Origin: Methanobacteriota archaeon
GTDB lineage: Archaea; Thermoplasmatota; Poseidoniia; Poseidoniales; Poseidoniaceae
Direction: 5' to 3'
DNA: 39,783 bases
Assembly: GCA_002706065.1 (NCBI GenBank)
Contig: PAJM01000030.1
Location: 1 to 39,783, forward strand
Shown here: positions 5,948-35,350 of the stretch, piece after piece
Numbering within the stretch: the stretch's first letter is position 1
Layout of the letters: each line of letters opens with the position of its first letter
Position numbers and translations under genes: made by a program
Notes under the pieces: model-generated
Database searches by the model: none
What the model was told of the DNA's origin: nothing
The model's input: only the letters and a program-made list of their open reading frames with translations

Positions 5948-5992
5948 GGATGTGCTTAGATGTTCTTGCACATGAAGGGTGCGCCGAAGGCA

Positions 5993-6607
5993 TCAGAGTA
6001 GGTCAGCGAGTTCGTCCTTGATGATCTCAACTGCTTCCAAAATCTCGTCCTTGTGTCGAGCACCGGTAATGACCATCTTACCGCTACCGAAAATCAGGCA
6101 GACAACCTTTGGATAATCGAGGCGATAAATGAGTCCAGGGAATTGCTCTGGTTCGTATTCGACTTTGTCGAATGGAAGATGGAATGTAAGGTTGTTGAGG
6201 TTCAACTTACGAGGCTCACCAGCGAGTGGTGCCCCTGTAAACTTGTCATTTCCATCGTAATCTTCAGGGTAGTGAAGAGCGTAGGTTGCAACCATGTTTT
6301 GGACTTCAATTTCAACATCCTTGAGATCCCATGTTGTGATTCCAGCAGCACGCAGATCCTTGATCATTCGGTCGATGCCGGTGTGAATATTGTCCTCGTC
6401 TTTTCCGCCGGTGCAGACTGCTCGTCCAGAACGGAACATGAGGATGGCAAGTTTCGGGTCAGTAACTCGATAAACGACACCAGGGAATTGTTCAGGCTCA
6501 TACTCACAGTTGAGTTGGATTGCAATGTCTGGGAGATCGAGTTCTTCGGCTACGCGGGTACTTGCTACAACATTGACGACAGTCAATCGCTCTTCATCGG
6601 TGGTCAT
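5993..6607 (-). CDS. tbp: TATA-box-binding protein
   Basis: Two direct repeats, each with NxVA, YEPEQFPGxxYR, FxSG and TG motifs typical of archaeal TBP. Confidence 0.98.
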   Translation of the reverse strand: MTTDEERLTVVNVVASTRVAEELDLPDIAIQLNCEYEPEQFPGVVYRVTDPKLAILMFRSGRAVCTGGKDEDNIHTGIDRMIKDLRAAGITTWDLKDVEIEVQNMVATYALHYPEDYDGNDKFTGAPLAGEPRKLNLNNLTFHLPFDKVEYEPEQFPGLIYRLDYPKVVCLIFGSGKMVITGARHKDEILEAVEIIKDELADLL

Positions 6608-6629
6608 GGGTTGCGGCTTTCCACCCGCA

Positions 6630-6637
6630 TATATAAA
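6630..6637 (-). promoter_or_regulatory. Canonical archaeal TATA box (TTTATATA) of tbp, probably a leaderless transcript
   Basis: The minus strand reads TTTATATA, ending 22 nt before the ATG at 6607. Confidence 0.75.
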
Positions 6638-6680
6638 TGAGAGGACGACTCTTGGATTGAAATCCTTTCAGTATAGGGCC

Positions 6681-7661
6681 TCAACTTATATGTTCAAATC
6701 GCAGACCTTCCTCATTGAATTCAGAGATAAACGCTCGACCACCCTCCATTTCGATGGCGCCAACCGTTTGTTCAGGGTTTCTCGTTAGAGCAATCATACA
6801 ACCTCCCCCGCCTGCGCCAGTCATTTTGACGCCCAAACTACTCGGAGCAGCAGCGCGTATGAGTCGTTCCAGTTCAGGAGATGAAACACCAAGTGACCGA
6901 AGAACCATGTGATTTTCTGTCATTGCTTGACCAACCGCTTCCATGTTGCCTTCCTTCAAGGATTGGATACCCCTCCGAGTGATTGCTCCGATGGTTTCGA
7001 GTTCCACTTGACGTACTGGATTGTCTTTGATGAGGTTTGCGACGTGCTTGACCATAGCAGAGGTTGACCCATGGACGCCTGTGTTTCCCACCACAAGCGC
7101 AACGTCTTCTGGTATGTTTGCGTTAAAAGTATGCAAATGCCATTCCAGTTGTTGTCCGTTGACTTCCATCGTTCTAGTTTCGATGAAATCAAGACTTTCT
7201 TCGACATGGTCGGAGAGCACAACAAAACCCCCATAGGAACTTGCTGCTGTATCAACTGGACTGGCACGACCTGACTGTGCCTTGGCCTCGGCACGATGCG
7301 ATAGAGTACTAGCTTGAAGCAAATCGATCGGCTCTCCTCGAAGTTGTTGAAGGGCACCGCAGAGGGCAACCGACAATGCCGCAGACGATCCGAGTCCAGA
7401 TGCTTTGGGAATCGTCCCTCGAATGCGGATGTGAAGTGGTCGTCCATCAAGCGGAGGGAGATGTTTTCGAATGTATTCAACATGCGGATGTTTTCTCGGA
7501 TTAAAAGTCCGGCCATCGAGCCGCCATGAATCGAACGTTTCCTCTTTTTCGATTTCGATGATCATGCGCTGGTTAATGCTGCATGCCAATGCGGGTTGGC
7601 CATAGACTACGGCATGTTCTCCGAAAAGAATGCACTTTCCAGGAGCACTTGCTTTGACCAT
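6681..7661 (-). CDS. mvk: Mevalonate kinase (GHMP kinase)
   Basis: APGKCILFGEHAVVYG, IPKASGLGSSAA ATP-binding loop, SPVD, KMTGAGGGGC. Confidence 0.93.
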   Translation of the reverse strand: MVKASAPGKCILFGEHAVVYGQPALACSINQRMIIEIEKEETFDSWRLDGRTFNPRKHPHVEYIRKHLPPLDGRPLHIRIRGTIPKASGLGSSAALSVALCGALQQLRGEPIDLLQASTLSHRAEAKAQSGRASPVDTAASSYGGFVVLSDHVEESLDFIETRTMEVNGQQLEWHLHTFNANIPEDVALVVGNTGVHGSTSAMVKHVANLIKDNPVRQVELETIGAITRRGIQSLKEGNMEAVGQAMTENHMVLRSLGVSSPELERLIRAAAPSSLGVKMTGAGGGGCMIALTRNPEQTVGAIEMEGGRAFISEFNEEGLRFEHIS

Positions 7662-7715
7662 GTTCCTTGCAGACCTATCACAACCATTAGGATTGGTATT
7701 GGTTTCATCGTTGGG

Positions 7716-7721
7716 TTGAAG
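7716..7721 (+). promoter_or_regulatory. Putative variant TATA element TTGAAG
   Basis: 23 nt before ATG 7745; same motif and spacing as at seven other genes (see findings). Confidence 0.55.
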
Positions 7722-7744
7722 GATTAGAGGTGTTTAGGGGAATC

Positions 7745-9772
7745 ATGATGGAACATCCACTCGACGTTTCCTATGCAGGAATCAAGGGGTATTACTTACT
7801 CCTTGTTCTTGGCGGAATCTCGATTGGATTCTTCGCTTATCAGGTGCAGAAAGCAACACGTTTGGTTCTGTTAGGCGCTCCAGACAAGCGTTTTGATTCC
7901 TGGGGCAAGCGGATGAAAGAAACCCTCACCGTTTGGCTTGGACAACGCAAGGTTCTGGAAGACAAGGTTGCTGGTACCATGCACGTTCTGATGTTTTGGG
8001 GATTCCTCATGCTGTCTTCTGACATGCTTGACTTGGCTACAGCCAATCGTTTCAGTGAACACATCCTCCCAGATGCATTGAATGGAATCTGGAACGGTAT
8101 GGTCGAGCTTGGCTACACAAGTGCCCTTGTCGGTTGCTTTCTTGCGTTGAATCGCCGAGTGTTGTTCACGCCCGAGAAGTTGAAAGGGAAGTCGCAACTT
8201 GAGGGCAATGTAATTCTCCTCCTCATCATGACGATTTGTACCACGTCCTACGTCGTTGAGGCCGGTGAAAATCCACATCCGATGTGGGAAATGATCGGCG
8301 CATGGGTCCAAGATACCTTTGCACCCTCGCAAACAACGATCAACATCGCCTATTGGGCACACATGGTTGCGATTTGCACCTTCTTGTTTTTGATTCCTCT
8401 CTCCAAGCACATGCACTTGGTCATGGCCCTTCCGAACGTTGCGTTTTTCGATACCGAACCAATGGCGAAAATGCGACCTCTTGCAACAGACGAAAGCGGT
8501 TCTGCTGTGTCGTTAGAAGAACTCGATTTGGAATCGTTTGGAGCCGCTAATTACACGCAATTGTCCTGGAGAAGTCTCATTGATGGATGGGCTTGTACAT
8601 CGTGTGCACGGTGCCAGGATGTGTGCCCAGCATATGCGAGTGGGAAAGAATTGAATCCGATGCAAATCATTCATGACGTTCGCCACTATGCCAACGAAAA
8701 TGCATCTCAGCTCTTTGCTGGTGAAACACCGGAAGAAGACATCATCGCTCGCTTTGGTGAAGAGGCAATATGGGCCTGTACCACATGTCACGCTTGTGTC
8801 GATGTTTGTCCTGTCAACATCGAACATGTACCTAAACTGACCGATGCCCGCCGTCATCTCATGATGGAACGGATGGAGTTTGATGAAGCAGTTGAAGATA
8901 CCATTATGCCGCTGATGGCTACCATTGAAAATTTGGAATCTGATTCCAATCCATACGGTCTTCCATCACACGAGCGTGGAGATTGGGCAGCAGATCTTGA
9001 CGTGAAGGTTGCCGAGCCAGCAGAATACATCTATTTCGCAGGTTGCGCAGCTTCCTTCGACGAGCGAAATAAGAAAGTCGCTCGTGATACCATTTCAATC
9101 ATGAAGGAAGCAGGACTAGATGTTGGCATCCTCGGTATGCAGGAAGGCTGCACTGGTGATGCTGCTCGCCGTGCTGGGAACGAGTACTTGTTCCAAATGC
9201 TTGCAGAGACAAATTTGGAGACCTTCGACGAACTTGGCGTCAAGAAAGTTGTTGCCTCCTGTCCACACTGTTTCCACACGCTTGGAAAAGAGTACAAGGA
9301 TTACGGCGGTGAAGACATTGAGGTCATGCACCATTCTCAATTGATTGCACATTTGCAACACGAGGGTAAACTGCCTGAACCAGAACACGATGGTTCAGTA
9401 ACCTACCACGATCCGTGTTATCTCGGTCGAATAGGTGGTGAATATGATGCACCTCGAGATGCCATCGGCGGAATCGATGTAGAAACTGAGCGTCACGGTC
9501 GCGGCTCGTTCTGTTGCGGTGCTGGTGGTGCTCAAATGTGGATGGAAGAACACGTCCCAGATAGCCACGACCGCGTGAACATCATTCGTGCCAAGGAACT
9601 TGCTTCCACTGGTGCGGATACAGTTGCTGTTGGATGCCCATTCTGTTCAACCATGGTGACGGACGGCCTGTCCGCAATCGATGTAGAAATGGAAGTCAAA
9701 GACATCGCTGAATTGGTTTGGGAGCAGATCAAAGCCAACGATGCGAAGATACAAGAAGCAAAGGCTGCTTGA
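7745..9772 (+). CDS. Membrane-bound Fe-S oxidoreductase, FadF/HdrD/GlpC type (ETF:quinone oxidoreductase-like)
   Basis: N-terminal multi-TM region with conserved His (MHVLMFWGF, WAHMV, SKHMHL). Two ferredoxin motifs (CTSCARCQDVCP, CTTCHACVDVCP). Two cysteine-rich CCG-type domains (FAGC..CTG..CPHC; YHDPC..CCG..CPFC). Confidence 0.88.
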   Translation: MMEHPLDVSYAGIKGYYLLLVLGGISIGFFAYQVQKATRLVLLGAPDKRFDSWGKRMKETLTVWLGQRKVLEDKVAGTMHVLMFWGFLMLSSDMLDLATANRFSEHILPDALNGIWNGMVELGYTSALVGCFLALNRRVLFTPEKLKGKSQLEGNVILLLIMTICTTSYVVEAGENPHPMWEMIGAWVQDTFAPSQTTINIAYWAHMVAICTFLFLIPLSKHMHLVMALPNVAFFDTEPMAKMRPLATDESGSAVSLEELDLESFGAANYTQLSWRSLIDGWACTSCARCQDVCPAYASGKELNPMQIIHDVRHYANENASQLFAGETPEEDIIARFGEEAIWACTTCHACVDVCPVNIEHVPKLTDARRHLMMERMEFDEAVEDTIMPLMATIENLESDSNPYGLPSHERGDWAADLDVKVAEPAEYIYFAGCAASFDERNKKVARDTISIMKEAGLDVGILGMQEGCTGDAARRAGNEYLFQMLAETNLETFDELGVKKVVASCPHCFHTLGKEYKDYGGEDIEVMHHSQLIAHLQHEGKLPEPEHDGSVTYHDPCYLGRIGGEYDAPRDAIGGIDVETERHGRGSFCCGAGGAQMWMEEHVPDSHDRVNIIRAKELASTGADTVAVGCPFCSTMVTDGLSAIDVEMEVKDIAELVWEQIKANDAKIQEAKAA

Positions 9773-9781
9773 TACCAATCG

Positions 9782-10720
9782 ATGGTTATGATGAATCAAG
9801 GGGCTCTGCTTTCTTGGTATCGACGTGTGGAGCGTCCCCTTCCGTGGCGTTTGAATCCATCTCCATGGTCAATTTTGCTTTCTGAGATCTTGTTGCAACA
9901 GACACAAATGGAACGCGGAATTCGATATCACACTGCACTACTGGAACGCTTTCCTACTGTCCAATCCATGGCCGAATCTTCTGTTGATGAAGTTCTCCAT
10001 CTCTGGCAAGGGGCGGGGTATTACTCACGTGCGCGTCGATTGCACGCATTAGCAGTTGAAGTTGTCCAATCCCATGGAGGCGTACTCCCTGAAGATTACG
10101 ATAGCTTACTCAAACTCCCCGGAATCGGGCCCTACACTGCAGCGGCAGTTGCTTCGATTGCCTTCATGGAACCAGTTGCTTGTGTTGACGGGAACATACG
10201 AAGGGTCATGGCGAGACAAACAAATCAAGAGGAACCCTCGCCAACACAGGTTCAATCCTTTGCGAATGAACAATTGCACGAAAACGCCCCAGGTGATTGG
10301 AATCAAGCCATGATGGAATTAGGGGCTCTCCTCTGCCGGCCACGCAATCCCTCATGTGAGGAATGTCCAGTTCACGATACATGTCTCGGTCGTTCCCGAG
10401 CACGTGAACTTCCGCGACCAAAGAAAATCAAGAAGAAAACAGAACAATACAACTGCATCGTTCGTGTTGATGATCGAGGCCTCCCGGAGTTGCATCAGCG
10501 CCCAGATACGGGATTGTTCGCCGGTTTGTGGGGTCCAGAGATGGGGTCGGATTTGGGGACAGAAGGTTGTGACCACGTCGGAACCATACGACACCTACTG
10601 TCGCATAGAGAACTGATTGTTTCCGTGTGGAAATCGAAGGGTAAGAACGGAATTGATTCTGAAACCGTAGCTCTTTCAACTCTCGATCGAAGGATTCTGG
10701 AATTGGTTGGATTGCTCTAA
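9782..10720 (+). CDS. mutY: A/G-specific adenine DNA glycosylase
   Basis: LPWR, SEILLQQT, WQGAGYYSRARRLH, HhH motif LPGIGPYTA, VDGNIRRV, NQAMMELGA, FeS loop CRPRNPSCEECPVHDTC, short NUDIX-like C-terminus. Confidence 0.95.
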   Translation: MVMMNQGALLSWYRRVERPLPWRLNPSPWSILLSEILLQQTQMERGIRYHTALLERFPTVQSMAESSVDEVLHLWQGAGYYSRARRLHALAVEVVQSHGGVLPEDYDSLLKLPGIGPYTAAAVASIAFMEPVACVDGNIRRVMARQTNQEEPSPTQVQSFANEQLHENAPGDWNQAMMELGALLCRPRNPSCEECPVHDTCLGRSRARELPRPKKIKKKTEQYNCIVRVDDRGLPELHQRPDTGLFAGLWGPEMGSDLGTEGCDHVGTIRHLLSHRELIVSVWKSKGKNGIDSETVALSTLDRRILELVGLL

Positions 10721-11416
10721 GATATCCCATGTAAACGATGCAAGGCATCCTAACAAGGCGAAGAAAAGAATGAATTCAGCAGGAGCAGCAACATCCACCC
10801 ATGGTTGGAGTTGATTCAACGGAATCATGTCGGGTTCAACACCCAGTTCCCTGCTCCGTTGTTCGACACCTTTGCCGATTGAAATTGTCATTACAACAAG
10901 CGATACCAATGCAATTGCTAAGGATGTTAATCGAAGTCTGCGTCCCTTTGGATGTGAATCAGGAAGTGAAAAGTGAGCCAGAAGAGCCCATGTGAACCCT
11001 CCATGGAAAACGATAATCGATGTGTAGACGTGTAATGAGAGATAATCGTACATGTTTGCGAATGCCAATACCGCAAGGTGACTCGAACTTGCTACTCCAA
11101 GAATCGTTGCGAAAAGGAGTGTTTTGGCTTTCGCTCTCCTACGAAACAAAACGTACAATCGAAGCGCCAACAAGCATTGAAACCCTGCAGATACGAATAG
11201 ACCTGTTGTGAACACAATGCCTTCGATACCGGGATAATCTGATTCAGAGATGAAGAACGGAACGTCTCGATAATTCCCCAAGAGCACGTGCAATGTCACC
11301 GCCCCCATCACAGAACAGAGTGGTAAGAGCCACGCTAATTTGACGAGATGTGAATCGCGTAAAACGTAAGAAGAGAGGCGAACTCCTTCAGGATGGCTTA
11401 CCTCGAACCCCGTCAT
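10676..11416 (-). CDS. Six-TM membrane protein resembling the Frag1/DRAM/Sfk1 family
   Basis: About six hydrophobic helices; PFFISESD..P.E..F after TM1, His at the start of TM4 (SLHVY), AAPAEF at TM6. Start chosen at ATG 11416. The 3' end overlaps mutY by 45 nt. Confidence 0.6.
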   Translation of the reverse strand: MTGFEVSHPEGVRLSSYVLRDSHLVKLAWLLPLCSVMGAVTLHVLLGNYRDVPFFISESDYPGIEGIVFTTGLFVSAGFQCLLALRLYVLFRRRAKAKTLLFATILGVASSSHLAVLAFANMYDYLSLHVYTSIIVFHGGFTWALLAHFSLPDSHPKGRRLRLTSLAIALVSLVVMTISIGKGVEQRSRELGVEPDMIPLNQLQPWVDVAAPAEFILFFALLGCLASFTWDILEQSNQFQNPSIES

Positions 11417-11484
11417 CAAGCCATCCTCGCCCCTTTCACGTATCAATCTTCAAGTGAGAGAGGCGACACCGATGGGATGTTCAC

Positions 11485-12972
11485 ATGCCATTACGAGTCC
11501 ACGACACACGCCGGCGCGAGAAGGTTGATTTCACGACCCAATCGCCTGGAAGAGTCTCGATGTACGTCTGTGGAGTAACGGTTTACGACCGTTGTCATCT
11601 TGGCCATGCACGCTGCTACATCGCATTCGACTTGATTCACCGCTGGCTCGAAGCTTCGGGTTATGATGTTGATTATGTGCAAAATTTCACAGACATTGAT
11701 GATAAGATCATCATCCGTTCAATCGAATCAGGTGAAGACTGGAGAGCGATTGTCGATCGCAACATCAACACGTACTATGAAGACATGGATGCGTTGAATA
11801 TCCTTCGTGCCGATCACTACCCGCGATGTACTGAATATGTTGAATCAATGATTCATATCATCGAGGATTTGATTGAGAAAGGACATGCGTACGTTGCCAA
11901 TGATGGTGTGTACTTTCATGTTGATTCAGCACCCGAAAAATACGGGCAGTTGACCGGGCAATCCATCGATGCTGTACGACAAGGTGCAGGTGGCCGAGTT
12001 GATGCAACTGGCGGAGGCAAACGTGACCACAAAGACTTCGCTCTTTGGAAGCAAGCCAAACCTGGTGAGCCAACGTGGCCATCACCTTGGGGTGAAGGTC
12101 GGCCGGGTTGGCACATTGAGTGTACTGCGATGAGCCTCGATCATTTTGGTACGTCCTTTGACATCCATGGTGGAGGACACGACCTCCGTTTCCCACACCA
12201 CGAGGCTGAAATCTTCCAAAGCGAATGCCACACAGGGCATGCGCCATTGGCAGGCTATTGGTTGCACAATGGATTTGTCAATATTGATGGCGAAAAGATG
12301 AGCAAGTCGTTGGGGAACTTCTGGACCATCCGCGACATCATTCAAAAGGTTGACCCATTTGTTCTCCGTTTAGCATTGGTGAATGCGCATTACCGTTCAC
12401 CAATCGATATGAACGAACAACTTCTCAACGATGCGAAACGAAATCATACCCGTATTGTCCAAGTCTACGAAACTGCGCTGCGACTAATCACCGAAGGGCG
12501 TCAACACCAACTGCCGGAACCAGATCTAGCAAGCCATGACCCATTACCAAAGACCCTTGGTCTGCTTGAACGACTTGCCGAAGGTTTTGCTCAAGCTATG
12601 GATGATGACTTCAACAGCCGTGAAGCGGTCGCCAAGGTTCTCGCTGCGACCAAGCAATTGCAACATCTGATGACTTTGGGGTCCGATGAAGGTGATCAAC
12701 GAGCCATTGCAACATACGCCAAGGAATGGCTAGAGGAGACGGCTGGCAACATACTTGGAATCTTACCTTCCCCAGATCTCCTCTTAGCAGAGCCTGTTGA
12801 AGACCCGCGCAAAGCAGAGATTGCAGAGCAGGTGGAAGCACTGCTTGTGAAGCGAAACGATGCTCGTGCCAACAAGGATTGGCCACGTGCTGATGCCATC
12901 CGTGATCAATTGAACGAACTCGGTGTCACAGTAACGGATACTGCAGATGGTCCTGTCTGGGAACTCAATTGA
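11485..12972 (+). CDS. cysS: Cysteine--tRNA ligase
   Basis: [59 protein letters not shown]. Confidence 0.98.
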
Positions 12973-15495: not shown

Positions 15496-15587
15496 GACCC
15501 TGCCTTGGTCATAGAGCACATCAACCCGTCGATTGAAGACTTTGGTGAAATGCATGAGCACTTATACTGTGACCCCTACGCCAACCT

Positions 15588-15962
15588 ATGGCAACAGTAG
15601 AAATGCAAGGCTCTTCCTTCAATGAGACCATCGAAGGAAACGACTTGGTCATCATTGACTTCTGGGCCGAATGGTGCGGACCATGCCGCGCTTACGGTCC
15701 AGTTTTCGAGCGCGTCTCTGAGGAATTCCCAGACGTCGTGTTCGCAAAAGTAGACACAGAAGTAGAGCAAGCACTTGCTGGTTCGTTTGGAATACGTTCA
15801 ATTCCAACCACCATTGCGTTCAAACAAGGTGTCGGAGTCTTCATGCAACCCGGTGCGCTACCGGAAGATGCACTTCGAGATTTGATTGCGAAACTTCAGC
15901 AATTGGATATGAATGAAGTGCAAGCAGAACTTGAAGCACGTGAATCTGATGAATTAGCATAA
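15588..15962 (+). CDS. trxA: Thioredoxin
   Basis: DFWAEWCGPC active site, GIRSIPT cis-Pro loop. Confidence 0.97.
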   Translation: MATVEMQGSSFNETIEGNDLVIIDFWAEWCGPCRAYGPVFERVSEEFPDVVFAKVDTEVEQALAGSFGIRSIPTTIAFKQGVGVFMQPGALPEDALRDLIAKLQQLDMNEVQAELEARESDELA

Positions 15963-16002
15963 GGCAAAAAGCGTCATATGTCGGATTTGAGACGGGGAAC
16001 CA

Positions 16003-19797: not shown

Positions 19798-19844
19798 TTT
19801 CCATCGTCTGTCAAAGGCTTTTGAGGATAACCCTCCAAAACGAC

Positions 19845-21248: not shown

Positions 21249-21255
21249 GGTTAGG

Positions 21256-22023
21256 CTAATCCCCGGCTGTTTTCAAATCCTTGCAAAGCGCTTTGAAGGT
21301 ACGAAGTCCGGTGAGTGTGTGGCTTCCAAACCATGTTAAGGCCTCTCCATCGATGCATTGTGTCCAAGGTCGATGCCCTCCGATGGCTCCGACGGCATCG
21401 GAAATCTCCTCTCCTTCTTGTTTGGAAAATTCATGAGGTTCACTCGATAGGAGAAGCCCTTCAACAGCGTGCAACTTGATCTGTTCGGCCGAAACAACAG
21501 GGTAACCATTGCCGTCTGGTTCGATGTCGGGAACTTGGAAACCACACGTTTCGAGTAAAGCTCCTGAGTACTTTCGGGGTGAAACAGCCATGAGCGGTTT
21601 GTGCCATATTAACGGCAAGACAACCGGTCCTGAGCCTTGCTCACAATGTCCAAGTTCATTTCGTATTGTCTCTGCAAGTTCCTTTGCACGTTGCTCTCGG
21701 CCCAACCTCTGCCCAAGTTCAATCAACATGTTTGGTACATCGCTTGGACGTTCAACAGTGCTGACAAATGTCTTGATGCCGAGGTTCGTTAATTCATCAT
21801 GAACGTCCTTTGGGTTTTCTTCACGGTCCATCAATACCAAATCGGGCTTTGCGTTTCGAATCTTGTTGATGTTCGGAGTCTTGGTTCCACCAACAACTGG
21901 TATCGCCTCGACCATCGACTTTGGATGGATGCACCACGGTGTTCGACCAACGATTTCTGACGCATCAAGGCCGAGGTCAGCAAGAGTCAATGTAAGACTT
22001 GGTACGAGCGAAATCACCCGCAT
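21256..22023 (-). CDS. Helical-backbone metal-receptor (BtuF/TroA-like) substrate-binding-fold protein
   Basis: MRVISLVPS, VGRTPWC.HP, VVGGTKTP, PDLVLMDREEN, LSSEP, IDGE..WFG. Confidence 0.85.
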   Translation of the reverse strand: MRVISLVPSLTLTLADLGLDASEIVGRTPWCIHPKSMVEAIPVVGGTKTPNINKIRNAKPDLVLMDREENPKDVHDELTNLGIKTFVSTVERPSDVPNMLIELGQRLGREQRAKELAETIRNELGHCEQGSGPVVLPLIWHKPLMAVSPRKYSGALLETCGFQVPDIEPDGNGYPVVSAEQIKLHAVEGLLLSSEPHEFSKQEGEEISDAVGAIGGHRPWTQCIDGEALTWFGSHTLTGLRTFKALCKDLKTAGD

Positions 22024-22032
22024 TTTTGACCC

Positions 22033-25000: not shown

Positions 25001-25308
25001 AAATCAAGTCGTTTCTGAACTTCGATTTCGACTGGTAGTCCATGTGTATCCCAACCACCCTTACGTTCAACGAGAAAACCTTCCATTGATTTCCAACGGC
25101 AAACGAGATCCTTGTACGCACGAGCCACGACATGGTGTATCCCGGGTTTGCCGTTGGCTGTGGGAGGTCCTTCAAGGAAAATGAAGGGTGCACCCTCTCT
25201 GTTGGAATCGATGGACTGCTGGAATGTTTCCTCGTTCTTCCATGTTTCAAGCAATGCTGTTTCAAGAGCAACTGCATCGAGGTCACCTGCAGGGTCTGGT
25301 CGAACCAT
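22033..25308 (-). CDS. ileS: Isoleucine--tRNA ligase, type 2
   Basis: FLEGPPTANG, GWDTHGLPVE, WTTTPWTLP editing domain, DWAISRERYWGTPLPVW, EGVDQTRGWFY, KMSKS; type-2-like C-terminus without the type-1 zinc finger. Confidence 0.98.
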   Translation of the reverse strand: MVRPDPAGDLDAVALETALLETWKNEETFQQSIDSNREGAPFIFLEGPPTANGKPGIHHVVARAYKDLVCRWKSMEGFLVERKGGWDTHGLPVEIEVQKRLDLMSNEAIENFGMQAFNDACRESVWTYESAWREMTERMAYWVDLDNPYVTLHNDYVESCWWALKQMFDKDLLYRGHKVLPYCPQTGTSYSSHEVALGYKEVEEPSVYVKFKLVDDSASILAWTTTPWTLPGNVGLAVGPDVTYARCRVREQPEGWQGRGGASVGEELILAKDLMGEVLRHHVDIIEEIPGSDLVGKSYESLFPDAVPRGDSSTAWTVLSADWVTTTDGTGVVHTAVMYGEDDYNLGMEVGLPAYHTVSMEGNFVNGVHPELDGRYVKSCDDTVMEILEGRSDEIPSGLLYREKSYLHDYPHCWRTDHPLLYYAMDSWFVRMTAVKERLLEFNDGVEWAPDWVGEGRFGEWLRNVKDWAISRERYWGTPLPVWRDQHGNMKCVGSIAELQHEVAKANAAGIENPDCPDDVDLHRPVVDAFTLISDEGEPMHREPFVMDCWFDSGCAPFAQWHHPFDESKTFDSSFPVDYICEGVDQTRGWFYTLLAVSTTVFDSPAYKRCLSLGLILDAEGKKMSKSRGNIVDPWDHFNREGADATRWYMVTAGAPWNPLKFDSNGVRETYAKMFLTLWNVYRFHADYAALDSFDPDESESPISQRSRLDRWILSKLHTTAAAYHNGFTNWNFHKACRELEDFIVNDLSNWYVRRSRRRLWEEAESGDKLACQHTLHEILVTLCRLIAPVSPFMVDTIHRNLTGETVHTASWPMGTPGSTKGATADAWDEELVATTAHLPPQDVNLEQEMELVRELAETGRRIRIDAQRRQRLPCAEGWIVAGPNLQPYHDLLCEELNVESISVETDLDRFQQVELAVNFRALAPRAKGDVNAIAGQIKNHTDQETLLSEIRSGTCTIMDVDILESDIEVRRTERDGYAAATIMVGEGDDASHVSLVLDMQDTPHLLSKGLARDITRRIQSKRKDMDLEIEDMIDVEVWMANAPDLFEDDQTWIAKETRASGIVFNVEQPPSDAESFDVDGAQIAYRVHKL

Positions 25309-25330
25309 GGTCTGCGAAATGCACCTTCGT

Positions 25331-25381
25331 TTTCAATCTCTCCCTTGATTCGCAGCAGTAGAATGGACTGACACATTCAAG
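25331..25381. promoter_or_regulatory. Divergent promoter region with two variant TATA elements
   Basis: TTGAAA on the minus strand (25336-25331) lies 22 nt before the ileS ATG. TTCAAG on the plus strand (25376-25381) lies 23 nt before ATG 25405. Confidence 0.55.
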
Positions 25382-25404
25382 TCCTTTGAAACATAGGCGA
25401 GAAT

Positions 25405-30498: not shown

Positions 30499-30536
30499 TG
30501 CATCATTTCTATGAAACCCGACCATGTGGGATTGTC

Positions 30537-32276
30537 ATGAGCGGGCAAGATGAAAGCCTGATTGCTCTGCTTCAACTCAATCCAACCGTTGGCGACATTG
30601 CCGGTAATGCCAAGCGTCTCGAACAGTTTATCGAAGTTGCAGCGTCCTCAGGCGCGGCTGTGAGTGTGAGTACAGAACTCGCAATCTGCGGTTATCCTCC
30701 ACGGGATCTGTTGATGCAATCCAAATTTGTGGAATTGGCTCAGCAATCAGCTCTTGATCTCAAGGTTGAGATGCCATCGTTGATTGGTACACCTACCGTT
30801 CCAGATACTTCCCGGGGGAAACCAGGGAATGGGGTGGTGTTACTCGGTAATGAAGCCCCCGTCAAGGTCGTTGCACGCAAACAATTGTTGCCGACATACG
30901 ATGTCTTTGATGAGGCGCGATATTTTGATTCCGATGATCGTCCAGGAATAGCTCGAACACTTTCTGGGCCGCTTGAATTGGGCGTCACAGTATGTGAGGA
31001 TGCCTGGCAAGTTGCCGGTCAAACACCTTCTGAGTACGATGCAGACCCGATCGAACAATTAGCAGAGTGGGGTCGCCAAGGCGTGAATCTCGATGCCACT
31101 GTGAACCTGTCCGCATCACCCTATCACTCAAATAAAATCCAAACTCGCCTGCACGTGGCTCGAACAGCGGCGAATACGCTTGGACACCCGTTCCTTCTTT
31201 GCAATCAAGTAGGTGGCAACGATGATCTTCTCTTCGATGGACGTTCCCTCGCTGCTTGGCCGTCTGGAGACGTTGTCGTAGCTCCTTCATGGAAAGAGGG
31301 GATTCTCCTCGTCGATATTCACAATCCAGAAGCGGCGCGATGGATTTCGATGGAATCCTCCGATGATGAACTCCTGCATTTTGAACCAGGTGAAACAGGA
31401 GACGGCCGACACGATGTTCTCGAAGAATTGTCAGATGCAGTCGTTGTAGGGTTGCGTGATTATTGTCAAAAGTCAGGAATAAAGCAAATCGTTCTCGGAT
31501 TGAGTGGGGGAATTGATTCTGCAGTAGCAGCCTGCGTAGCGGCCGAAGCGGTTGGACCTGAAAACGTCCTCGGCCTTTCGATGCCTTCTCGATTTTCATC
31601 CCAACATTCAATGGATGATGCCAAATATACAGCAGAATCGCTCGGAATGGAGTATGCCTCAATTCCAATCGATGCACATCATTCAGCCTTGGAGCAACAC
31701 CTCGCGCAAATGCTCGAGAATGGATCTGAAGTTGCTCAAGAGAACATCCAGGCACGTTTGCGTGGGATTCTTGTCATGGCACACGCCAACGCTCAAGGAA
31801 GAATGGCGATTGCAACTGGGAACAAATCTGAGCTTGCACAGGGGTATTGCACATTGTATGGTGATATGGCTGGGGGTTACACGCCGCTTGGCGACGTCTA
31901 CAAAATGGAAGTTTACGGGCTTGCAGAGGTCTTCAACCGCCGAGCAATTGAATCTGGCAAGAAGCCTCCAGTGAATGCTTCGACGTTAACGAAACCACCC
32001 TCTGCAGAACTTGCACCCGATCAACGGGACGATGACACACTTCCTCCATACGAAACACTTGATGCAATTCTCAAGCAACATATCGAACATGGCCTTGGTG
32101 CAGATGCGATTGCAGAGCAGGGTTTTGACCATACGACTGTTGTCTCGGTCTTGCAACGTCTCGAAGCAAATGAGCACAAACGCTGGCAAATGGCACCAGC
32201 ACCTCGGGTATCTTCACGGGCCTTTGGTCAAGGATGGCGTCATCCTCTAGCAAGCAATCACGACTGGCGTCGATAG
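30537..32276 (+). CDS. nadE: Glutamine-dependent NAD+ synthetase
   Basis: Nitrilase-fold domain (QLNPTVGD, TELAICGYPPRD, KQLLPTYDVFDE, VCED) fused to the synthetase domain (GLSGGIDSA, ENIQARLRG, TGNKSE, GYCTLYGD, PPSAEL). Confidence 0.96.
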   Translation: MSGQDESLIALLQLNPTVGDIAGNAKRLEQFIEVAASSGAAVSVSTELAICGYPPRDLLMQSKFVELAQQSALDLKVEMPSLIGTPTVPDTSRGKPGNGVVLLGNEAPVKVVARKQLLPTYDVFDEARYFDSDDRPGIARTLSGPLELGVTVCEDAWQVAGQTPSEYDADPIEQLAEWGRQGVNLDATVNLSASPYHSNKIQTRLHVARTAANTLGHPFLLCNQVGGNDDLLFDGRSLAAWPSGDVVVAPSWKEGILLVDIHNPEAARWISMESSDDELLHFEPGETGDGRHDVLEELSDAVVVGLRDYCQKSGIKQIVLGLSGGIDSAVAACVAAEAVGPENVLGLSMPSRFSSQHSMDDAKYTAESLGMEYASIPIDAHHSALEQHLAQMLENGSEVAQENIQARLRGILVMAHANAQGRMAIATGNKSELAQGYCTLYGDMAGGYTPLGDVYKMEVYGLAEVFNRRAIESGKKPPVNASTLTKPPSAELAPDQRDDDTLPPYETLDAILKQHIEHGLGADAIAEQGFDHTTVVSVLQRLEANEHKRWQMAPAPRVSSRAFGQGWRHPLASNHDWRR

Positions 32277-32313
32277 GCGATGAATACAAGACAATGGTAG
32301 TGGACGCATCGTT

Positions 32314-33156
32314 ATGACGACACAGCATCTCAACATCGCAGGGTACAAGTTCATTGTACTTCCCGATCGCAATGCGTTACGTCAACCCTTCAAACAACGA
32401 TGTGATGAACTTGGACTCAAGGGAACCATCCTCCTCAGTTACGAGGGAATCAATATCTTCGTTGCAGGACCACAGAACGGTATCAACATGTTTCGTTCGT
32501 ATCTTGCAGAAGACGAACGATTCGCAGACATTGAGTTCAAAGAATCCTTTTCCGAACAACAACCGTTCAACCGAATGAATGTTCGACTCAAGACAGAAAT
32601 CATCTCTGTTGGCTTACCTAATTTCGATCGGGTTGAATCAGATGACGGAAGAATTCTTCCTGCCGAACTCCATGAAAAGCTTCTCAACGACGATGACATC
32701 GTTCTTCTTGATACTCGAAACACCTACGAAACACGGCTCGGAACCTTCCAGAATGCCATCGAATTGGATCTCGATACATTTCGTTCGTTTCCACAAGCGG
32801 TCTCGAAACTCGATGAGTCCTACAAAGACAAAGAGATCATCATGTTCTGTACGGGCGGAGTCCGTTGTGAGAAGGCCAGTGTCATCATGAAAGATTCGGG
32901 TTTCTCCAACATTAAGCAACTTGAAGGAGGCATTCTCGGATACTTTGAACAGGTTGGTGGTGACTATTGGGATGGCGAATGCTTTGTCTTTGACAAACGC
33001 GTTGCTCTCCTTCCTGATTTAACTGAAACTGGAACTACGATTTGTTTTGCATGTCGAGAACCGTTGACACCGAAGGAACAATTGCATCCTGCATATGTGC
33101 CTGGCGAATCGTGTTCGTATTGCATCGATCGACGTCAATCCCAGACCATCCACTGA
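32314..33156 (+). CDS. trhO: Rhodanese-family tRNA uridine(34) hydroxylase TrhO (UPF0176)
   Basis: YKF, LKGTILLSYEGIN, LKTEII, LDTRN.YE..GTF, MFCTGGVRCEKA, QLEGGIL.Y, GECFVFDKR, C-terminal Cys cluster. Confidence 0.85.
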   Translation: MTTQHLNIAGYKFIVLPDRNALRQPFKQRCDELGLKGTILLSYEGINIFVAGPQNGINMFRSYLAEDERFADIEFKESFSEQQPFNRMNVRLKTEIISVGLPNFDRVESDDGRILPAELHEKLLNDDDIVLLDTRNTYETRLGTFQNAIELDLDTFRSFPQAVSKLDESYKDKEIIMFCTGGVRCEKASVIMKDSGFSNIKQLEGGILGYFEQVGGDYWDGECFVFDKRVALLPDLTETGTTICFACREPLTPKEQLHPAYVPGESCSYCIDRRQSQTIH

Positions 33157-35291
33157 TCACGAATGGACGGTCGAAGGTATTGATGCAACTCATGGCCATG
33201 TTGGCCATTGTCTGCAATGAACAAGAGATGGTTTGATGTGACTGTCAAACCCCCATATGTTCCCGCATCGGAGTTGTTACCAATTCCAGTCCATACGTCA
33301 AGAACCAGTGAGGGGGTATTGCCCTCGATGGCCCATAGTGCATGACCACTGTTGGTTCCAGAATCATCCAACCCCTGTGCGAGTACGTACAGGACGGAAT
33401 CGACATACGCCATTGTCCGTGGTTGACTTGAGCTTATTCCTGGCAGCAAATCAATCGTTAATTTCGTACCTTGCACGGTGCCGTCGGTTTGACAAAGTTC
33501 CATCCCAGTATTGCTCAAAACACAATCAAACCAAATGGTAACTCCGTCGCTGACAACCTCATTGCTGTGGCCCGGTGCAAGGATGCTCATGCTCAATTCC
33601 TGCAACATTCCGGAGGCAATTGAGTAACCAAACAACGTAGCATCAGCTCCGCGATGGACTGCATCGAACACAAGGACGTCGCCAAGTTGCTGAATACCGA
33701 AGGCAGGTGCAATTACAGAAATCGGCGTTGTTGTGCCTTCTCGAGTTAATGAAGTCAACCATTGGTAGCCTCCATCATGATCCAGTTTCGCCAATTGCCG
33801 ACCAGTGCCATCACTTGCAGCAACAACAAACCCATCATCCATCGATAATCCTTGAGAGGGTGAAGAATCGCCAAAGGGTTGCAAATCATAGATATGCAGG
33901 CTTCCTGTCGTACTGAGGAATACCATCTCGAGACCAGCTTGAGCATCCTTTGCAGCAAACCATAATCCATGTTCATCACCCTGGAGCAATCCTTGACCGA
34001 ACGATGACAAACTCGTCGATTGGTTTACCAAATCAGAAGAAACTACGCTGGAGAACCAAGGTGCTTGCCAAATCGAAGTGGTTACACTACCATTGGTCCA
34101 CCACATTCGATGACCTTGTGACCCGTGGGTTGTGAACACGGCCCCATCCATCCACGTCGTTATTTTCGATGTCCAATCGATCGCATCCCCCGTTTCCATG
34201 TCACCAAGCATCGTGGTTCCTATTGAGGTACCATCACTTACCCAAAGTTCACGTCCGTTGATACCATCATCAGCATCGAAGAAGAATCGAGGTCCTCGTT
34301 CAGTAACAACGGAATGGATTCCAAGTTCGCGACCAGGGACAGAATCACCATTCGAGTGAATATCCATGAGCATGGAGGGGACATTGTTTTGCTGAAGAAT
34401 CCACAGTTCACAACCGTTCAATCCGTCATTCGATGTGAATAACATTATTTCATCAGCATCTGCGTTACTACATTCATTAGAGAAACCATTAGTGACTCCG
34501 GTATTCGAATCGAAAACTAACCCCTCATACAACTGCTCTGAGCAAATTCTCAGAGATTCTCGAACCTCATCATCATGAAGAATTCCATCGCCAGCGGTCG
34601 CTCTGTCTGTCCCATCATCAACACCAAATTCCATGACAATGCCCTTTGGACAAATTGAGGTTGGTGCTTGATGTTGTTCAATCAGTGCCGAGTATCCCTG
34701 TGAACCATCGTCTCCTTGCTGGCCTTCAGGACCCTCATCACCAAGCTGTCCATCACAGACATGTGCAGTTGTTTCGATTTCTTCCTGATCCAAGTAGAGG
34801 TTGCGATTGGTATCAACTCCTGATTCGATCTGGATTCCACCAAACTGACATGGGACACCGGGAGATAATGCTGTGAGGTTGACGAGGCTTGAGTTGCCAT
34901 TGTGGCCGTTTGTTCCGTCAAAACCAGACTGACCTTGTGGACCTGAGAGTCCTTGTTGTCCATGACATACTTTCGTACTGCTCGTGATTTCCTCGGCAGA
35001 GAGTTTTCCGTCCCCATCAAAATCTGTTCCAAGGAAGATGTCGGCCCCTCCCTCAGGGCAATAGACATCAGCCTCCCGACCTTCGGTTTCAACAAGAATT
35101 GAGGAATCCTCTTCACTTGTTGAATCAAGCGCTTCAATCGAATGGTTCAGTACGACTGCCCATATGGAGAGTAAGAGTGCGCTCAGCACAATGGTTGTCT
35201 TGGTCATCTTCACGATGTTTTCTCGTGATAGGAAACGCGAATTGCGTTCATCACGGCGGGCTCCTTGTGTGTTGTTCTCATTTGAGGACAT
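33135..35291 (-). CDS. Membrane-anchored protein with collagen-like/Cys-Ca-loop repeats and a C-terminal ELWxxDGT-repeat beta-propeller
   Basis: TM IVLSALLLSIWAVVL. Three C-x-x-GG/GI...G.D.(D/N)...EE/DE...(V/I)C repeats separated by Gly-X-Y runs. Repeats GCELW, GRELWVSDGT, GMELCQTDGT, GHALW, GHELH. Start moved to ATG 35291 to avoid overlap with the divergent gene. Confidence 0.8.
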   Translation of the reverse strand: MSSNENNTQGARRDERNSRFLSRENIVKMTKTTIVLSALLLSIWAVVLNHSIEALDSTSEEDSSILVETEGREADVYCPEGGADIFLGTDFDGDGKLSAEEITSSTKVCHGQQGLSGPQGQSGFDGTNGHNGNSSLVNLTALSPGVPCQFGGIQIESGVDTNRNLYLDQEEIETTAHVCDGQLGDEGPEGQQGDDGSQGYSALIEQHQAPTSICPKGIVMEFGVDDGTDRATAGDGILHDDEVRESLRICSEQLYEGLVFDSNTGVTNGFSNECSNADADEIMLFTSNDGLNGCELWILQQNNVPSMLMDIHSNGDSVPGRELGIHSVVTERGPRFFFDADDGINGRELWVSDGTSIGTTMLGDMETGDAIDWTSKITTWMDGAVFTTHGSQGHRMWWTNGSVTTSIWQAPWFSSVVSSDLVNQSTSLSSFGQGLLQGDEHGLWFAAKDAQAGLEMVFLSTTGSLHIYDLQPFGDSSPSQGLSMDDGFVVAASDGTGRQLAKLDHDGGYQWLTSLTREGTTTPISVIAPAFGIQQLGDVLVFDAVHRGADATLFGYSIASGMLQELSMSILAPGHSNEVVSDGVTIWFDCVLSNTGMELCQTDGTVQGTKLTIDLLPGISSSQPRTMAYVDSVLYVLAQGLDDSGTNSGHALWAIEGNTPSLVLDVWTGIGNNSDAGTYGGLTVTSNHLLFIADNGQHGHELHQYLRPSIRDQWMVWD

Positions 35292-35314
35292 AATTGCTGG
35301 AGCGACGTCAACCG

Positions 35315-35350
35315 TATCAAAACCATCGGTTGGCAACACGAGTCTTGATG
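35315..35350. promoter_or_regulatory. Divergent promoter region with two variant TATA elements
   Basis: TTGATA on the minus strand (35320-35315) lies 23 nt before ATG 35291. TTGATG on the plus strand (35345-35350) lies 24 nt before ATG 35375. Confidence 0.55.

What the first reader, a model, noticed from the sequence alone, without database searches (positions are those of the whole stretch)
5971..35350. Non-canonical TATA element TT[G/C]A[A/T][A/G] at fixed 22-24 nt spacing before start codons
Seen (hexamer, position, gap to ATG): TTCATG 5976-5971, 23 nt; TTGAAG 7716-7721, 23; TTGATA 11446-11441, 24; TTGATG 15524-15519, 23; TTGAAA 25336-25331, 22; TTCAAG 25376-25381, 23; TTGATA 35320-35315, 23; TTGATG 35345-35350, 24. 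Weaker variants sit at the same spacing before mvk (CTAATG), the MutS-like gene (CTCAAA), nadE (TCTATG) and trhO (TACAAG). tbp has canonical TTTATA at 24 nt. cysS has TTCAAG at 30 nt. Established: archaeal TATA boxes (TTTAWA-like) lie at about this distance from the start of leaderless mRNAs, and TBP normally disfavours G:C pairs in the box. Inference: this lineage uses a core promoter with G/C at position 3 and mostly leaderless transcripts. A random match in a 3-nt window should be under 1% per gene at ~50% GC. Caveat: several starts were my own choice, although ileS and 25405 are the ORF-track starts.
Basis: partly seen in the sequence, partly recalled or inferred. Interest (0 to 1): 0.75.

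Follow-up and report, generated by a model that had tools for sequence, protein, structure and literature searches.

The report
Marine Group II G/C-tolerant TATA box
The abundant ocean archaea of Marine Group II start many genes from a promoter whose "TATA box" usually has a G or C at its third position and sits where the messenger would begin right at the start codon, whereas their nearest relatives keep the usual all-A/T box.

Summary
In the de-duplicated 1.84-Mb genome, a Poseidoniaceae (Marine Group IIa) MAG, TT[G/C]A[A/T][A/G] starts exactly 29 nt before the first in-frame ATG in 99 of 1370 genes, against 7.6 per control position.

These genes also carry features I did not select for:
- a pyrimidine at -1 in 108 of 114;
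- A/T at -10 in 101 of 114;
- a CGAW BRE-like block at -36..-33.

They tend to lack a Shine-Dalgarno and are rare inside operons. This is the archaeal BRE/TATA core promoter of leaderless mRNAs.

TT[A/T]AWR is as enriched over background (11x against 13x). G/C dominates (about 87%) because the genome is very TA-poor.

The tolerance is lineage-specific. The same pipeline finds it in 4 of 4 Marine Group II genomes but not in two Marine Group III genomes or one other Thermoplasmatota genome, which use TTTA/TTAA.

Marine Group II TBPs carry an order-specific insertion in repeat 2. "Mostly leaderless" is not shown (lower bound about 20%). No RNA data were available. I found no paper describing this.

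The parts
5971..5976 (-). TTCATG box, 23 nt before ATG 5947 (1166-aa protein of unknown family)
   Evidence: 5947 is the first in-frame ATG
7716..7721 (+). TTGAAG box, 23 nt before ATG 7745 (Fe-S oxidoreductase-like)
11441..11446 (-). TTGATA box, 24 nt before ATG 11416 (246-aa protein)
15519..15524 (-). TTGATG box, 23 nt before ATG 15495 (840-aa amidohydrolase-domain protein)
   Evidence: Start and box are kept in orthologues: 12 of 18 loci with an ATG have TT[G/C]AWR at -29..-31.
21271..21276 (-).
25331..25336 (-). TTGAAA box, 22 nt before ATG 25308 of ileS
   Evidence: All 66 distinct Poseidoniales ileS upstream sequences keep TT[G/C]A[A/T][A/G/T] at -30..-28 (34 C, 32 G).
25376..25381 (+). 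TTCAAG box, 23 nt before ATG 25405 (1697-aa protein)
35315..35320 (-). TTGATA box, 23 nt before ATG 35291 (ELWxxDGT-repeat protein)
   Evidence: start supported by orthologues
35345..35350 (+). TTGATG box, 24 nt before ATG 35375 (AcnX-like dehydratase)
6632..6637 (-). Canonical TTTATA box, 24 nt before ATG 6607 of tbp
   Evidence: the same TTTATATA is kept in the G005 orthologue
11449..11454 (+). TTCAAG box, 30 nt before ATG 11485 of cysS (implies a leader of about 6-7 nt)
   Evidence: CCTTCAAGTG kept in 6 of 13 related loci
5993..6607 (-). tbp, the only TBP gene found in the genome. The 204-aa product has the Marine Group II-specific insertion (residues about 111-135) after strand S1' of repeat 2.
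7685..7690 (-). Weak variant CTAATG, 23 nt before ATG 7661 (mvk)
32285..32290 (+). Weak variant TACAAG, 23 nt before ATG 32314 (trhO)
30508..30513 (+). Weak variant TCTATG, 23 nt before internal ATG 30537 of nadE
   Evidence: the NCBIfam alignment begins at residue 22 of the longer ORF

Best explanation
These hexamers are the TATA-box position of the general archaeal core promoter of a Marine Group II (Poseidoniales) archaeon.

The full element reads: A(-38) . C G A W R (BRE-like, -36..-32) . . T T N A W R A A (-29..-22) ... W(-10) S S ... Y(-1) A(+1)TG.

The inferred mechanism is as follows. The single TBP, with one of two TFBs, binds the box and BRE. RNA polymerase then initiates about 26-27 bp downstream of the box centre, on the A of the ATG, giving leaderless mRNAs.

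The peculiarity is that position 3 of the box, an A/T pair in other archaea, carries no discrimination in this order. G:C, C:G, A:T and T:A are all accepted. Because these genomes are strongly depleted in TA-containing words, about 85% of boxes end up as TTGA or TTCA.

What is shown: position, spacing, co-occurring elements, gene-context dependence, conservation and phylogenetic distribution.
What is inferred: that TBP/TFB bind here, and that the transcript starts at the ATG.
For: 1. Positional enrichment. TTSAWR at -29 occurs in 99 of 1370 genes against 7.55 per control position (13x). TTWAWR occurs in 15 against 1.36 (11x). De novo EM gives T.64 T.85 [C.49 G.43 T.06 A.02] A.74 W R A A, with the offset peak at -29.
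2. Unselected co-signals in the box@-29 genes: Y at -1 in 108/114 against 680/1192 (P=2e-18); W at -10 in 101/114 against 708/1192 (P=6e-11); CG at -36/-35 in 22/114 against 96/1192 (P=4e-4). This is the layout mapped in haloarchaea: TATA at -27/-28, BRE CGAAA, WW at -10/-11 (PMC2151090, passages read).
3. Gene context. A box is present at 2.5% of genes lying <20 nt behind a same-strand gene, 19% of divergent genes and 22% of same-strand genes with a 20-60 nt gap. It is anticorrelated with Shine-Dalgarno (OR 0.47, P=3e-5).
4. Evidence independent of start codons. 12 of 28 distinct tRNA upstream regions have TTSAW starting at -37..-26 (1.0 per position against 0.23 elsewhere). A further 4 have TTWAW.
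5. Conservation.
   - ileS: 66 of 66 distinct upstream sequences across Marine Group IIa and IIb keep the box, with G/C interchange, while the flanks diverge.
   - Amidohydrolase: 12 of 18 loci keep it.
   - Orthologue pairs: 17 of 31 keep TTNA (C>C 8, G>G 6, C>G 2, T>T 1).
6. Lineage specificity. The table gives counts in the zone -32..-26 as found/background.

| Genome | TT[G/C]A | TT[A/T]A |
|---|---|---|
| G000 (Marine Group II) | 321/156 | 102/46 |
| G037 (Marine Group II) | 74/31 | 15/7.4 |
| G005 (Marine Group II) | 64/27 | 10/4.4 |
| G017 (Marine Group II) | 45/19 | 9/2.1 |
| G028 (Marine Group III) | 6/9.5 | 44/7.2 |
| G073 (Marine Group III) | 15/20 | 57/30 |
| G035 (other Thermoplasmatota) | 19/14 | 43/9.7 |

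7. Machinery. One TBP (the second hit is an assembly duplicate), two TFBs, and no sigma-70 domain found (the genome is 83% complete).
Against: - No transcript 5' ends were available, so the TSS at the ATG and TBP/TFB binding are both inferred.
- Gene calls come from my own crude caller with first-ATG starts. Only about 11-13% of genes carry a strict box at -30..-28 (156 TTSAWR + 24 TTWAWR of 1370; 190 of 1443 TTNAWR before de-duplication), and about 60% of divergent genes show neither a box nor a Shine-Dalgarno. The model therefore covers a minority of genes explicitly.
- The DNA-facing residues of the TBP look canonical: N/V in S1 and S1', F-P in S3, L/F in S4, V/T in S5. They are nearly identical to M. 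jannaschii TBP, which serves all-A/T boxes. No residue change explains tolerance of G:C.
- Only three informative genomes outside the order were analysed (200-395 kb each).
Confidence: 0.82

Rival explanations
1. These are ordinary weak 'TATA-like' elements. On this reading TBP specificity is the same as in other archaea, and TA-poor genome composition has simply eroded the boxes. Promoter strength is carried by BRE, the -10 W and the initiator, so there is no lineage-specific recognition property.
For: - The TBP concave-face residues are canonical.
- The position-3 mix at boxes equals the genome-wide TTNA mix.
- rho(TA) is 0.35-0.61 in Marine Group II against 0.54-0.68 outside it, and TATA O/E is 0.09-0.24 against 0.31-0.77.
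- Canonical boxes persist at tbp and some tRNA genes.
Against: - Composition alone does not erode boxes elsewhere. The 64%-GC (G028) and 59%-GC (G035) genomes keep A/T-only boxes, and TT[G/C]A is not enriched there (0.6x and 1.3x of background).
- In Marine Group II, TT[G/C]A is as strongly positioned as TT[A/T]A.
- It is kept across the whole order at single genes, including tRNA promoters, which are usually strong.
Confidence: 0.2
2. The motif is the site of another abundant DNA-binding protein, such as a global regulator or chromatin protein, that happens to sit at the TATA position. TBP would bind something else.
For: None specific; binding was not measured.
Against: - No alternative A/T-rich box is positioned in these promoters (profile).
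- The motif has the register of TTTAWA boxes and is interchangeable with them.
- It occurs at hundreds of unrelated genes and at tRNAs.
Confidence: 0.04
3. The peak is a statistical or annotation artefact caused by start-codon choice, stop codons inside TTGA, or coding bias of upstream genes.
For: - Starts were not curated.
- TTGA contains TGA.
- Most upstream sequence in this 92%-coding genome is coding.
Against: - Starts were chosen blind to the motif.
- TGA within TTGA at -29 is out of frame with the ORF.
- TTCA, which has no stop, is the stronger signal.
- Control offsets give 7.55 per position, maximum 12.
- Decoy offsets with alternative starts give 120-136 of 1400 against 305 at the true offset.
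- tRNA genes show the box too.
- Outgroups run through the same pipeline give different boxes.
Confidence: 0.02
4. TTGAnn is a bacterial-type -35 element read by a sigma factor.
For: Superficial likeness of TTGAAA/TTGATA to TTGACA.
Against: - No sigma-70 region-2 domain was found in the genome (83% complete).
- TBP and TFB are present.
- TTCA is as frequent as TTGA.
- Spacing to the start is 23 nt from the box, there is no TATAAT at -12..-7, and only a single W at -10.
Confidence: 0.01

Closest known systems
Haloarchaeal core promoter of leaderless mRNAs (Brenneis et al. 2007, PMC2151090; passages read)
   Same: The architecture and register are the same:
- BRE (CGAAA there, CGAW here);
- a short conserved box centred near -27;
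- an A/T element at -10/-11;
- a distance from box to ATG equal to the distance from box to TSS, so transcripts start at the start codon.
   Different: The haloarchaeal box is TTWT (A/T at position 3). Here position 3 is G or C in about 85% of boxes and position 4 is A. Haloarchaea have many TBPs; this genome has one.
Canonical archaeal TATA box (TTTAWA / TTTATATA; for example M. jannaschii, PMC2699501, and Thermococcus onnurineus, PMC5316973: search listings and abstracts only)
   Same: Same position, the same TT start, A at position 4, W at position 5, and the same partners (TBP, TFB).
   Different: All-A/T in those organisms. By the same pipeline, Marine Group III and another Thermoplasmatota genome show TTTA/TTAA and no TTGA/TTCA enrichment.
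Yeast altered-specificity TBPm3 (I194F, V203T, L205V), which binds TGTAAA (described in PMC1636458; passages read)
   Same: A TBP that accepts a G:C pair in the upstream half of the box, which is contacted by the C-terminal repeat.
   Different: The tolerated pair there is position 2; here it is position 3. The three TBPm3 positions are I, V, L in Marine Group II TBP, which is not the mutant state. My mapping to yeast numbering is recalled, not computed. The Marine Group II peculiarity is an insertion after S1' of repeat 2.
Eukaryotic 'TATA-like' elements with 1-2 mismatches (PMC5703507; abstract only)
   Same: Functional core elements that depart from the A/T-only consensus.
   Different: Those are a heterogeneous mismatch class within a genome that also has a consensus. 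Here one defined variant is the majority form for a whole order.

Membership tests
Archaeal BRE/TATA core promoter driving leaderless mRNA | Box centred about 26-27 bp upstream of the transcription start | tested here: met
   The box occupies -29..-22 relative to the A of ATG, with a sharp peak at -29. This is met only on the inference that the TSS is the A of ATG.
Archaeal BRE/TATA core promoter driving leaderless mRNA | A/T-only box consensus (TTTAWA-like) | tested here: not met
   Position 3 is C 90, G 77, T 13, A 10 in 190 boxes. The EM motif gives C .49, G .43. Position 6 is A or G.
Archaeal BRE/TATA core promoter driving leaderless mRNA | BRE immediately upstream of the box | tested here: met
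   C-36 (.43), G-35 (.43), A-34 (.43), W-33 (.74) and A-38 (.47) in box genes. CG at -36/-35 occurs in 22/114 against 96/1192. The signal is weak but positioned.
Archaeal BRE/TATA core promoter driving leaderless mRNA | Initiator: pyrimidine at -1, purine at +1 | tested here: met
   Y at -1 in 108/114 box genes against 680/1192 others.
Archaeal BRE/TATA core promoter driving leaderless mRNA | No Shine-Dalgarno; first gene of a transcription unit | tested here: met
   OR 0.47 with Shine-Dalgarno. Box rate is 2.5% at operon-internal genes against 19-22% at divergent or spaced genes.
Archaeal BRE/TATA core promoter driving leaderless mRNA | TBP and TFB encoded by the organism | tested here: met
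Archaeal BRE/TATA core promoter driving leaderless mRNA | Mapped 5' ends at the predicted distance; TBP/TFB footprint | not testable with these tools
   No RNA holder was listed. There is no binding assay.
TBPm3-type altered-specificity TBP | Substitutions at the positions equivalent to yeast I194, V203 and L205 | tested here: not met
   Marine Group II TBPs have I, V, L at the aligned positions of GLIYR...PKVVCLIF. The residue identities of TBPm3 come from PMC1636458. The numbering transfer is recalled.

The most novel reading that the evidence does not exclude
Poseidoniales carry a natural altered-specificity TBP. The order-specific, well-ordered insertion directly after strand S1' of the C-terminal repeat (the repeat that covers the upstream half of the box) would let the protein accept, or even read through the minor groove, a G:C or C:G pair at position 3.

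The equal use of G and C, and of A and T at position 5, is what minor-groove readout predicts.

This relaxation may have co-evolved with the extreme TA-avoidance of these genomes. If so, one of the most abundant archaeal groups in the ocean has rewritten a promoter rule otherwise shared by archaea and eukaryotes.
Probability: 0.35. Interest if true: 0.8.

Novelty: new variant of a known kind. Interest (0 to 1): 0.62.

Why it matters
Marine Group II archaea are among the most abundant archaea in surface oceans and are uncultured, so their gene regulation can be read only from sequence.

- **Practical use.** A defined promoter grammar (CGAW-N3-TTNAWRAA-N11-W-N8-Y-ATG) allows three things in their MAGs and viruses: promoter and operon prediction, start-codon correction (as shown here for two genes), and host assignment.
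- **Mechanistic question.** In TBP biology, exclusion of G:C pairs from the box is treated as a near-universal consequence of minor-groove recognition. A whole order in which most boxes carry G:C at position 3, with a single TBP bearing a lineage-specific insertion, makes a long-standing question directly testable with two recombinant proteins and a few oligonucleotides: what sets TATA specificity?

Tried and rejected
- **RNA evidence.** No RNA holder was listed for window:15500-25499.
- **G025 (70% GC).** This outgroup was uninformative. First-ATG starts fail there, and codon periodicity is visible upstream.
- **cysS footprinting.** cysS gave only 13 archaeal loci; the remaining 67 of 80 were bacterial. 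It added little beyond showing a conserved CCTTCAAGTG box.
- **AlphaFold2 model of the TBP.** Mean pLDDT was 93 and the insertion scored about 88-90, mostly coil. This shows the insertion is ordered, but the tool gives no coordinates, so I could not tell whether it approaches the DNA. I ran no fold search or complex prediction.
- **Selection at position 3.** I first read the absence of S-to-W changes as selection for G/C. I rejected that reading because the genome-wide TTNA mix (about 85% S) predicts the same outcome.
- **Further Marine Group III and f27 sequence.** Only 200 kb of G073 was obtained, and G077 (f27) was not analysed.
- **Literature.** Searches for Poseidoniales or 'Marine Group II' together with TATA found 2 and 10 papers, none on promoters judging by the listed titles and abstract openings.
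- **Earlier notes of this scan.** One note mentions a 'host-type TATA box' in a Poseidoniales virus, without visible detail.

Full report
**Organism and material**

The window is G000:C30:1-39783 of a 1.89-Mb, 45-contig MAG with GC 0.48. The closest relatives of its ileS are MAGs titled Candidatus Poseidoniaceae or Poseidoniales, that is Marine Group IIa. The window encodes TBP, mevalonate kinase, CysRS, IleRS, NadE, TrhO and other proteins. About 49 kb of the assembly is redundant: C21:1-20424 is 97% identical to C30:1-20439, and there are two further overlaps. I masked or excluded these stretches in the genome-wide counts from then on that could be affected; the composition and tRNA scripts used the unmasked genome, counting identical upstream sequences once.

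**Checking the observation**

- All eight hexamers are at the stated places and distances.
- Six of the eight start codons are the first in-frame ATG of their ORF.
One of the two same-genus matches that cover the 5' extension (G057) has a TGA inside it; the other (G055) has no stop.
The same-genus matches across the extension contain stops.
- The weaker variants and the tbp and cysS statements are also correct.

**Genome-wide test**

No gene caller was on hand, so I wrote a crude one: codon log-odds trained on long ORFs, greedy non-overlap, 1506 genes. I took the first in-frame ATG as the start, which is blind to the motif.

The nucleotide profile shows two signals. One is a Shine-Dalgarno GAGG(TGA) at -11..-8. 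The other is T-29 T-28 N A-26 W-25 R-24, with an A-rich patch at -34..-32.

Counts in the de-duplicated set of 1370 genes:

| Pattern | -30 | -29 | -28 | Control mean per position (-100..-46) | Control maximum |
|---|---|---|---|---|---|
| TTSAWR | 33 | 99 | 24 | 7.55 | 12 |
| TTWAWR | 5 | 15 | 4 | 1.36 | 4 |

- An unbiased scan of all 4-mers and 6-mers by position ranks TTCA@-29 (70 against 10.2) and TTGA@-29 (58 against 12.7) highest outside the Shine-Dalgarno zone. TTCATG, TTCAAA and TTGAAA rank highest among hexamers.
- EM motif discovery returns T T [C/G] A W R A A with its offset peak at -29.

**Is it a promoter?**

Five lines of evidence say yes.

1. Genes with a box exactly at -29 (n=114-115) show features I did not select for:
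   - a pyrimidine at -1 in 108 of 114, against 680 of 1192 box-less genes;
   - A/T at -10 in 101 of 114, against 708 of 1192, followed by G/C at -9 and -8;
   - a BRE-like C-36 G-35 A-34 W-33 with A-38.

   This is the layout mapped experimentally in haloarchaea: BRE CGAAA, a box centred at -27/-28, and WW at -10/-11. There, equal distances to TSS and ATG were taken to show leaderless mRNAs (PMC2151090, passages read).
2. The box is anticorrelated with a Shine-Dalgarno (OR 0.47, P=3e-5) and depends on gene context:
   - 10 of 400 genes lying <20 nt behind a same-strand gene;
   - 91 of 476 divergent genes;
   - 56 of 260 same-strand genes with a 20-60 nt gap;
   - 28 of 269 with a gap of 60 nt or more.
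3. tRNA genes need no start-codon call. Of 28 distinct tRNA upstream regions, 12 have TTSAW starting at -37..-26 (1.0 hit per position against 0.23 elsewhere). Another 4 have TTWAW and 5 have TTAT there (the three counts may overlap). Several read TT[G/C]A[A/T]ATAC.
4. The box is conserved while its flanks diverge.
   - ileS: 66 of 66 distinct upstream sequences (75 loci examined; 5 of 80 dropped for a missing N-terminus or flank), spanning Poseidoniaceae and Thalassarchaeaceae, have TT[G/C]A[A/T][A/G/T] at -30..-28, with 34 C and 32 G.
   - Amidohydrolase: 12 of 18 loci.
   - cysS: CCTTCAAGTG is kept in 6 of 13 loci, and the other loci carry TTGAAT, TTGATG or TTGAAA.
5. The genome has one TBP and two TFBs. 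No sigma-70 domain was found, though the genome is only 83% complete.

**What position 3 really means**

G/C is the majority: C 90, G 77, T 13, A 10 of 190 boxes. Relative to their own backgrounds, however, the A/T versions are just as enriched (11x against 13x).

The genome is very poor in TA words:

| Word | O/E, whole genome | O/E, non-coding |
|---|---|---|
| TATA | 0.14 | 0.35 |
| TTAA | 0.27 | 0.46 |
| TTTA | 0.35 | 0.58 |
| TTGA | 1.99 | 1.95 |
| TTCA | 1.78 | 1.82 |

The position-3 mix at boxes matches the genome-wide mix of TTNA. So the box is TTNAWR, and composition fills N with G or C. For that reason I do not read the absence of S-to-W changes in orthologous boxes as selection for G/C. 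Those changes were C>C 8, G>G 6, C>G 2 and T>T 1 among the 17 of 31 pairs that keep a box. Canonical boxes coexist with the variant: TTTATATA at tbp, also kept in G005, and at some tRNAs.

**Lineage specificity**

I ran the same pipeline on 200-400 kb from other genomes. The table gives counts in the zone -32..-26 as found/background.

| Genome | Relationship | GC | TT[G/C]A | TT[A/T]A |
|---|---|---|---|---|
| G000 | own genome | 0.48 | 321/156 | 102/46 |
| G037 | same family, other genus | 0.52 | 74/31 | 15/7.4 |
| G005 | same order, other family | 0.52 | 64/27 | 10/4.4 |
| G017 | same order, other family | 0.59 | 45/19 | 9/2.1 |
| G028 | same class, other order | 0.64 | 6/9.5 | 44/7.2 |
| G073 | same class, other order | 0.36 | 15/20 | 57/30 |
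| G035 | same phylum | 0.59 | 19/14 | 43/9.7 |

- Both forms are enriched about 2-fold or more in all four Marine Group II genomes.
- Outside the order only the A/T forms are enriched. The top words there are TTAA, TTTA, AATA and TATA, that is a box like TTAAATAC.
- G025 (GC 0.70) was uninformative.

Tolerance of G:C at position 3 is therefore a trait of Poseidoniales among the genomes searched. High GC alone does not produce it.

**The TBP**

Pfam TBP scores split cleanly:
- In all 21 Poseidoniales genomes searched (G000 included), the main TBP scores 83-92 bits for repeat 1 and 78-83 bits for repeat 2. The repeat-2 match starts only at model position 9-15.
- In 19 of the 20 genomes of the sister families (f3, f27), the main TBP scores 102-107 and 95-101 bits over the full model; the 20th (G071, 86% complete) gave only one weak partial match. 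Nearly all of them have a second, divergent TBP.

An alignment of 16 Marine Group II TBPs with 9 others shows the cause. There is an insertion directly after strand S1' of repeat 2. It has conserved ends (YALHYPEDY.G ... PRK-LNLNNLTFHLPFDKV) and a variable middle, 20 to about 70 residues in total. It is absent from the Marine Group III protein and from 8 other Thermoplasmatota TBPs. AlphaFold2 predicts it as ordered, with pLDDT about 88-90.

The DNA-facing residues are otherwise canonical and close to M. jannaschii TBP. The three positions mutated in the yeast altered-specificity TBPm3, which accepts TGTA, are I, V and L here. The TBPm3 description comes from PMC1636458 (passages read); my transfer of numbering is recalled.

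The co-occurrence of the insertion with G:C tolerance is therefore only a correlation. The equal use of G and C, and of A and T at position 5, is what minor-groove or shape readout would give; that is inference.

**How many genes are leaderless?**

- A cross-validated PWM gives an excess over control offsets of 17% of all genes, 22% of spaced same-strand genes and 23% of divergent genes.
- Allowing alternative ATG/GTG/TTG starts gives 305 of 1400 genes with a strict box, against 120-136 at decoy offsets.
- These are lower bounds with crude starts, so 'mostly leaderless' is not demonstrated.
- A smaller peak of boxes at -42..-39, more marked in genes with a Shine-Dalgarno, suggests a class with a leader of about 13 nt.

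**Literature and earlier notes**

- Searches combining Poseidoniales or 'Marine Group II' with TATA returned 2 and 10 papers. None is about promoters, judging by the listed titles and abstract openings.
- No RNA run was listed.
- Earlier notes of this scan mention a 'host-type TATA box' in a Poseidoniales virus, without detail visible to me. I did not test it.

**Verdict**

This is a real, order-wide variant of the archaeal core promoter. The box register, BRE, -10 element and initiator are conventional. The loss of discrimination against G:C at position 3, in a TA-poor genome with a single insertion-bearing TBP, is the new point. I found no description of it.

Noticed in passing
whole genome G000; also G037, G005, G017: TA-containing words are extremely depleted in Marine Group II. 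rho(TA) is 0.35-0.61 and TATA O/E is 0.09-0.24, against 0.54-0.68 and 0.31-0.77 in four other Thermoplasmatota genomes. TTGA and TTCA are about 1.3-2-fold over-represented. The cause is unknown, and it may be linked to the box composition.
   Followed up: partly
L230 (G017:C35), about 5709-7388, minus strand: In one Marine Group IIb genome the TBP ORF is 560-588 aa. The two TBP repeats are separated by about 380 extra residues in the inter-repeat linker, in one open frame. I did not examine what the insert is.
   Followed up: no
genome-wide, -42..-39 from ATG: There is a second, smaller positional peak of TTSAWR boxes about 13 nt further upstream, more marked in genes with a Shine-Dalgarno. 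It suggests a class of mRNAs whose leader of about 13 nt begins just 5' of the Shine-Dalgarno.
   Followed up: partly
genome-wide, -10..-8 from ATG in box-bearing genes: There is a W(-10) S(-9) S(-8) pattern: 88% A/T, then about 80% G/C twice. It occurs in Shine-Dalgarno-poor leaderless promoters and resembles the haloarchaeal -10/-11 WW element, but adds two G/C positions.
   Followed up: partly
window 11485-12972 (+), cysS: CysRS has only 13 archaeal (Poseidoniales) relatives among the 80 best loci. The rest are bacterial at 38-53% identity, which suggests a bacterial-type cysS acquired by this lineage.
   Followed up: no
G000 contigs C21, C13, C6 against C30 and C41: The bin holds near-duplicate contigs: 20.4 kb at 97%, 15.3 kb at 99.9% and 13.2 kb at 99.7% identity. 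Two strains or overlapping contigs were binned together, so the window's first 20 kb, including tbp, occurs twice.
   Followed up: yes
sister families f3 and f27 (for example G028:C22:21924-22442): Marine Group III-type genomes nearly all carry a second, divergent TBP (4 repeat matches per genome). Poseidoniales mostly have one (2 matches), although some show extra weak partial hits.
   Followed up: no
G000:C6:31363-31914 and G000:C32:49048-49575: There are two TFB genes, and the second is much more divergent (55 and 44 bits against 87 and 83 bits per repeat). I did not examine whether they serve different BRE classes.
   Followed up: no
window 21271-21276 (-): A ninth TTGAAA box lies 22 nt before ATG 21248 (467-aa protein with no family hit).
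   Followed up: yes
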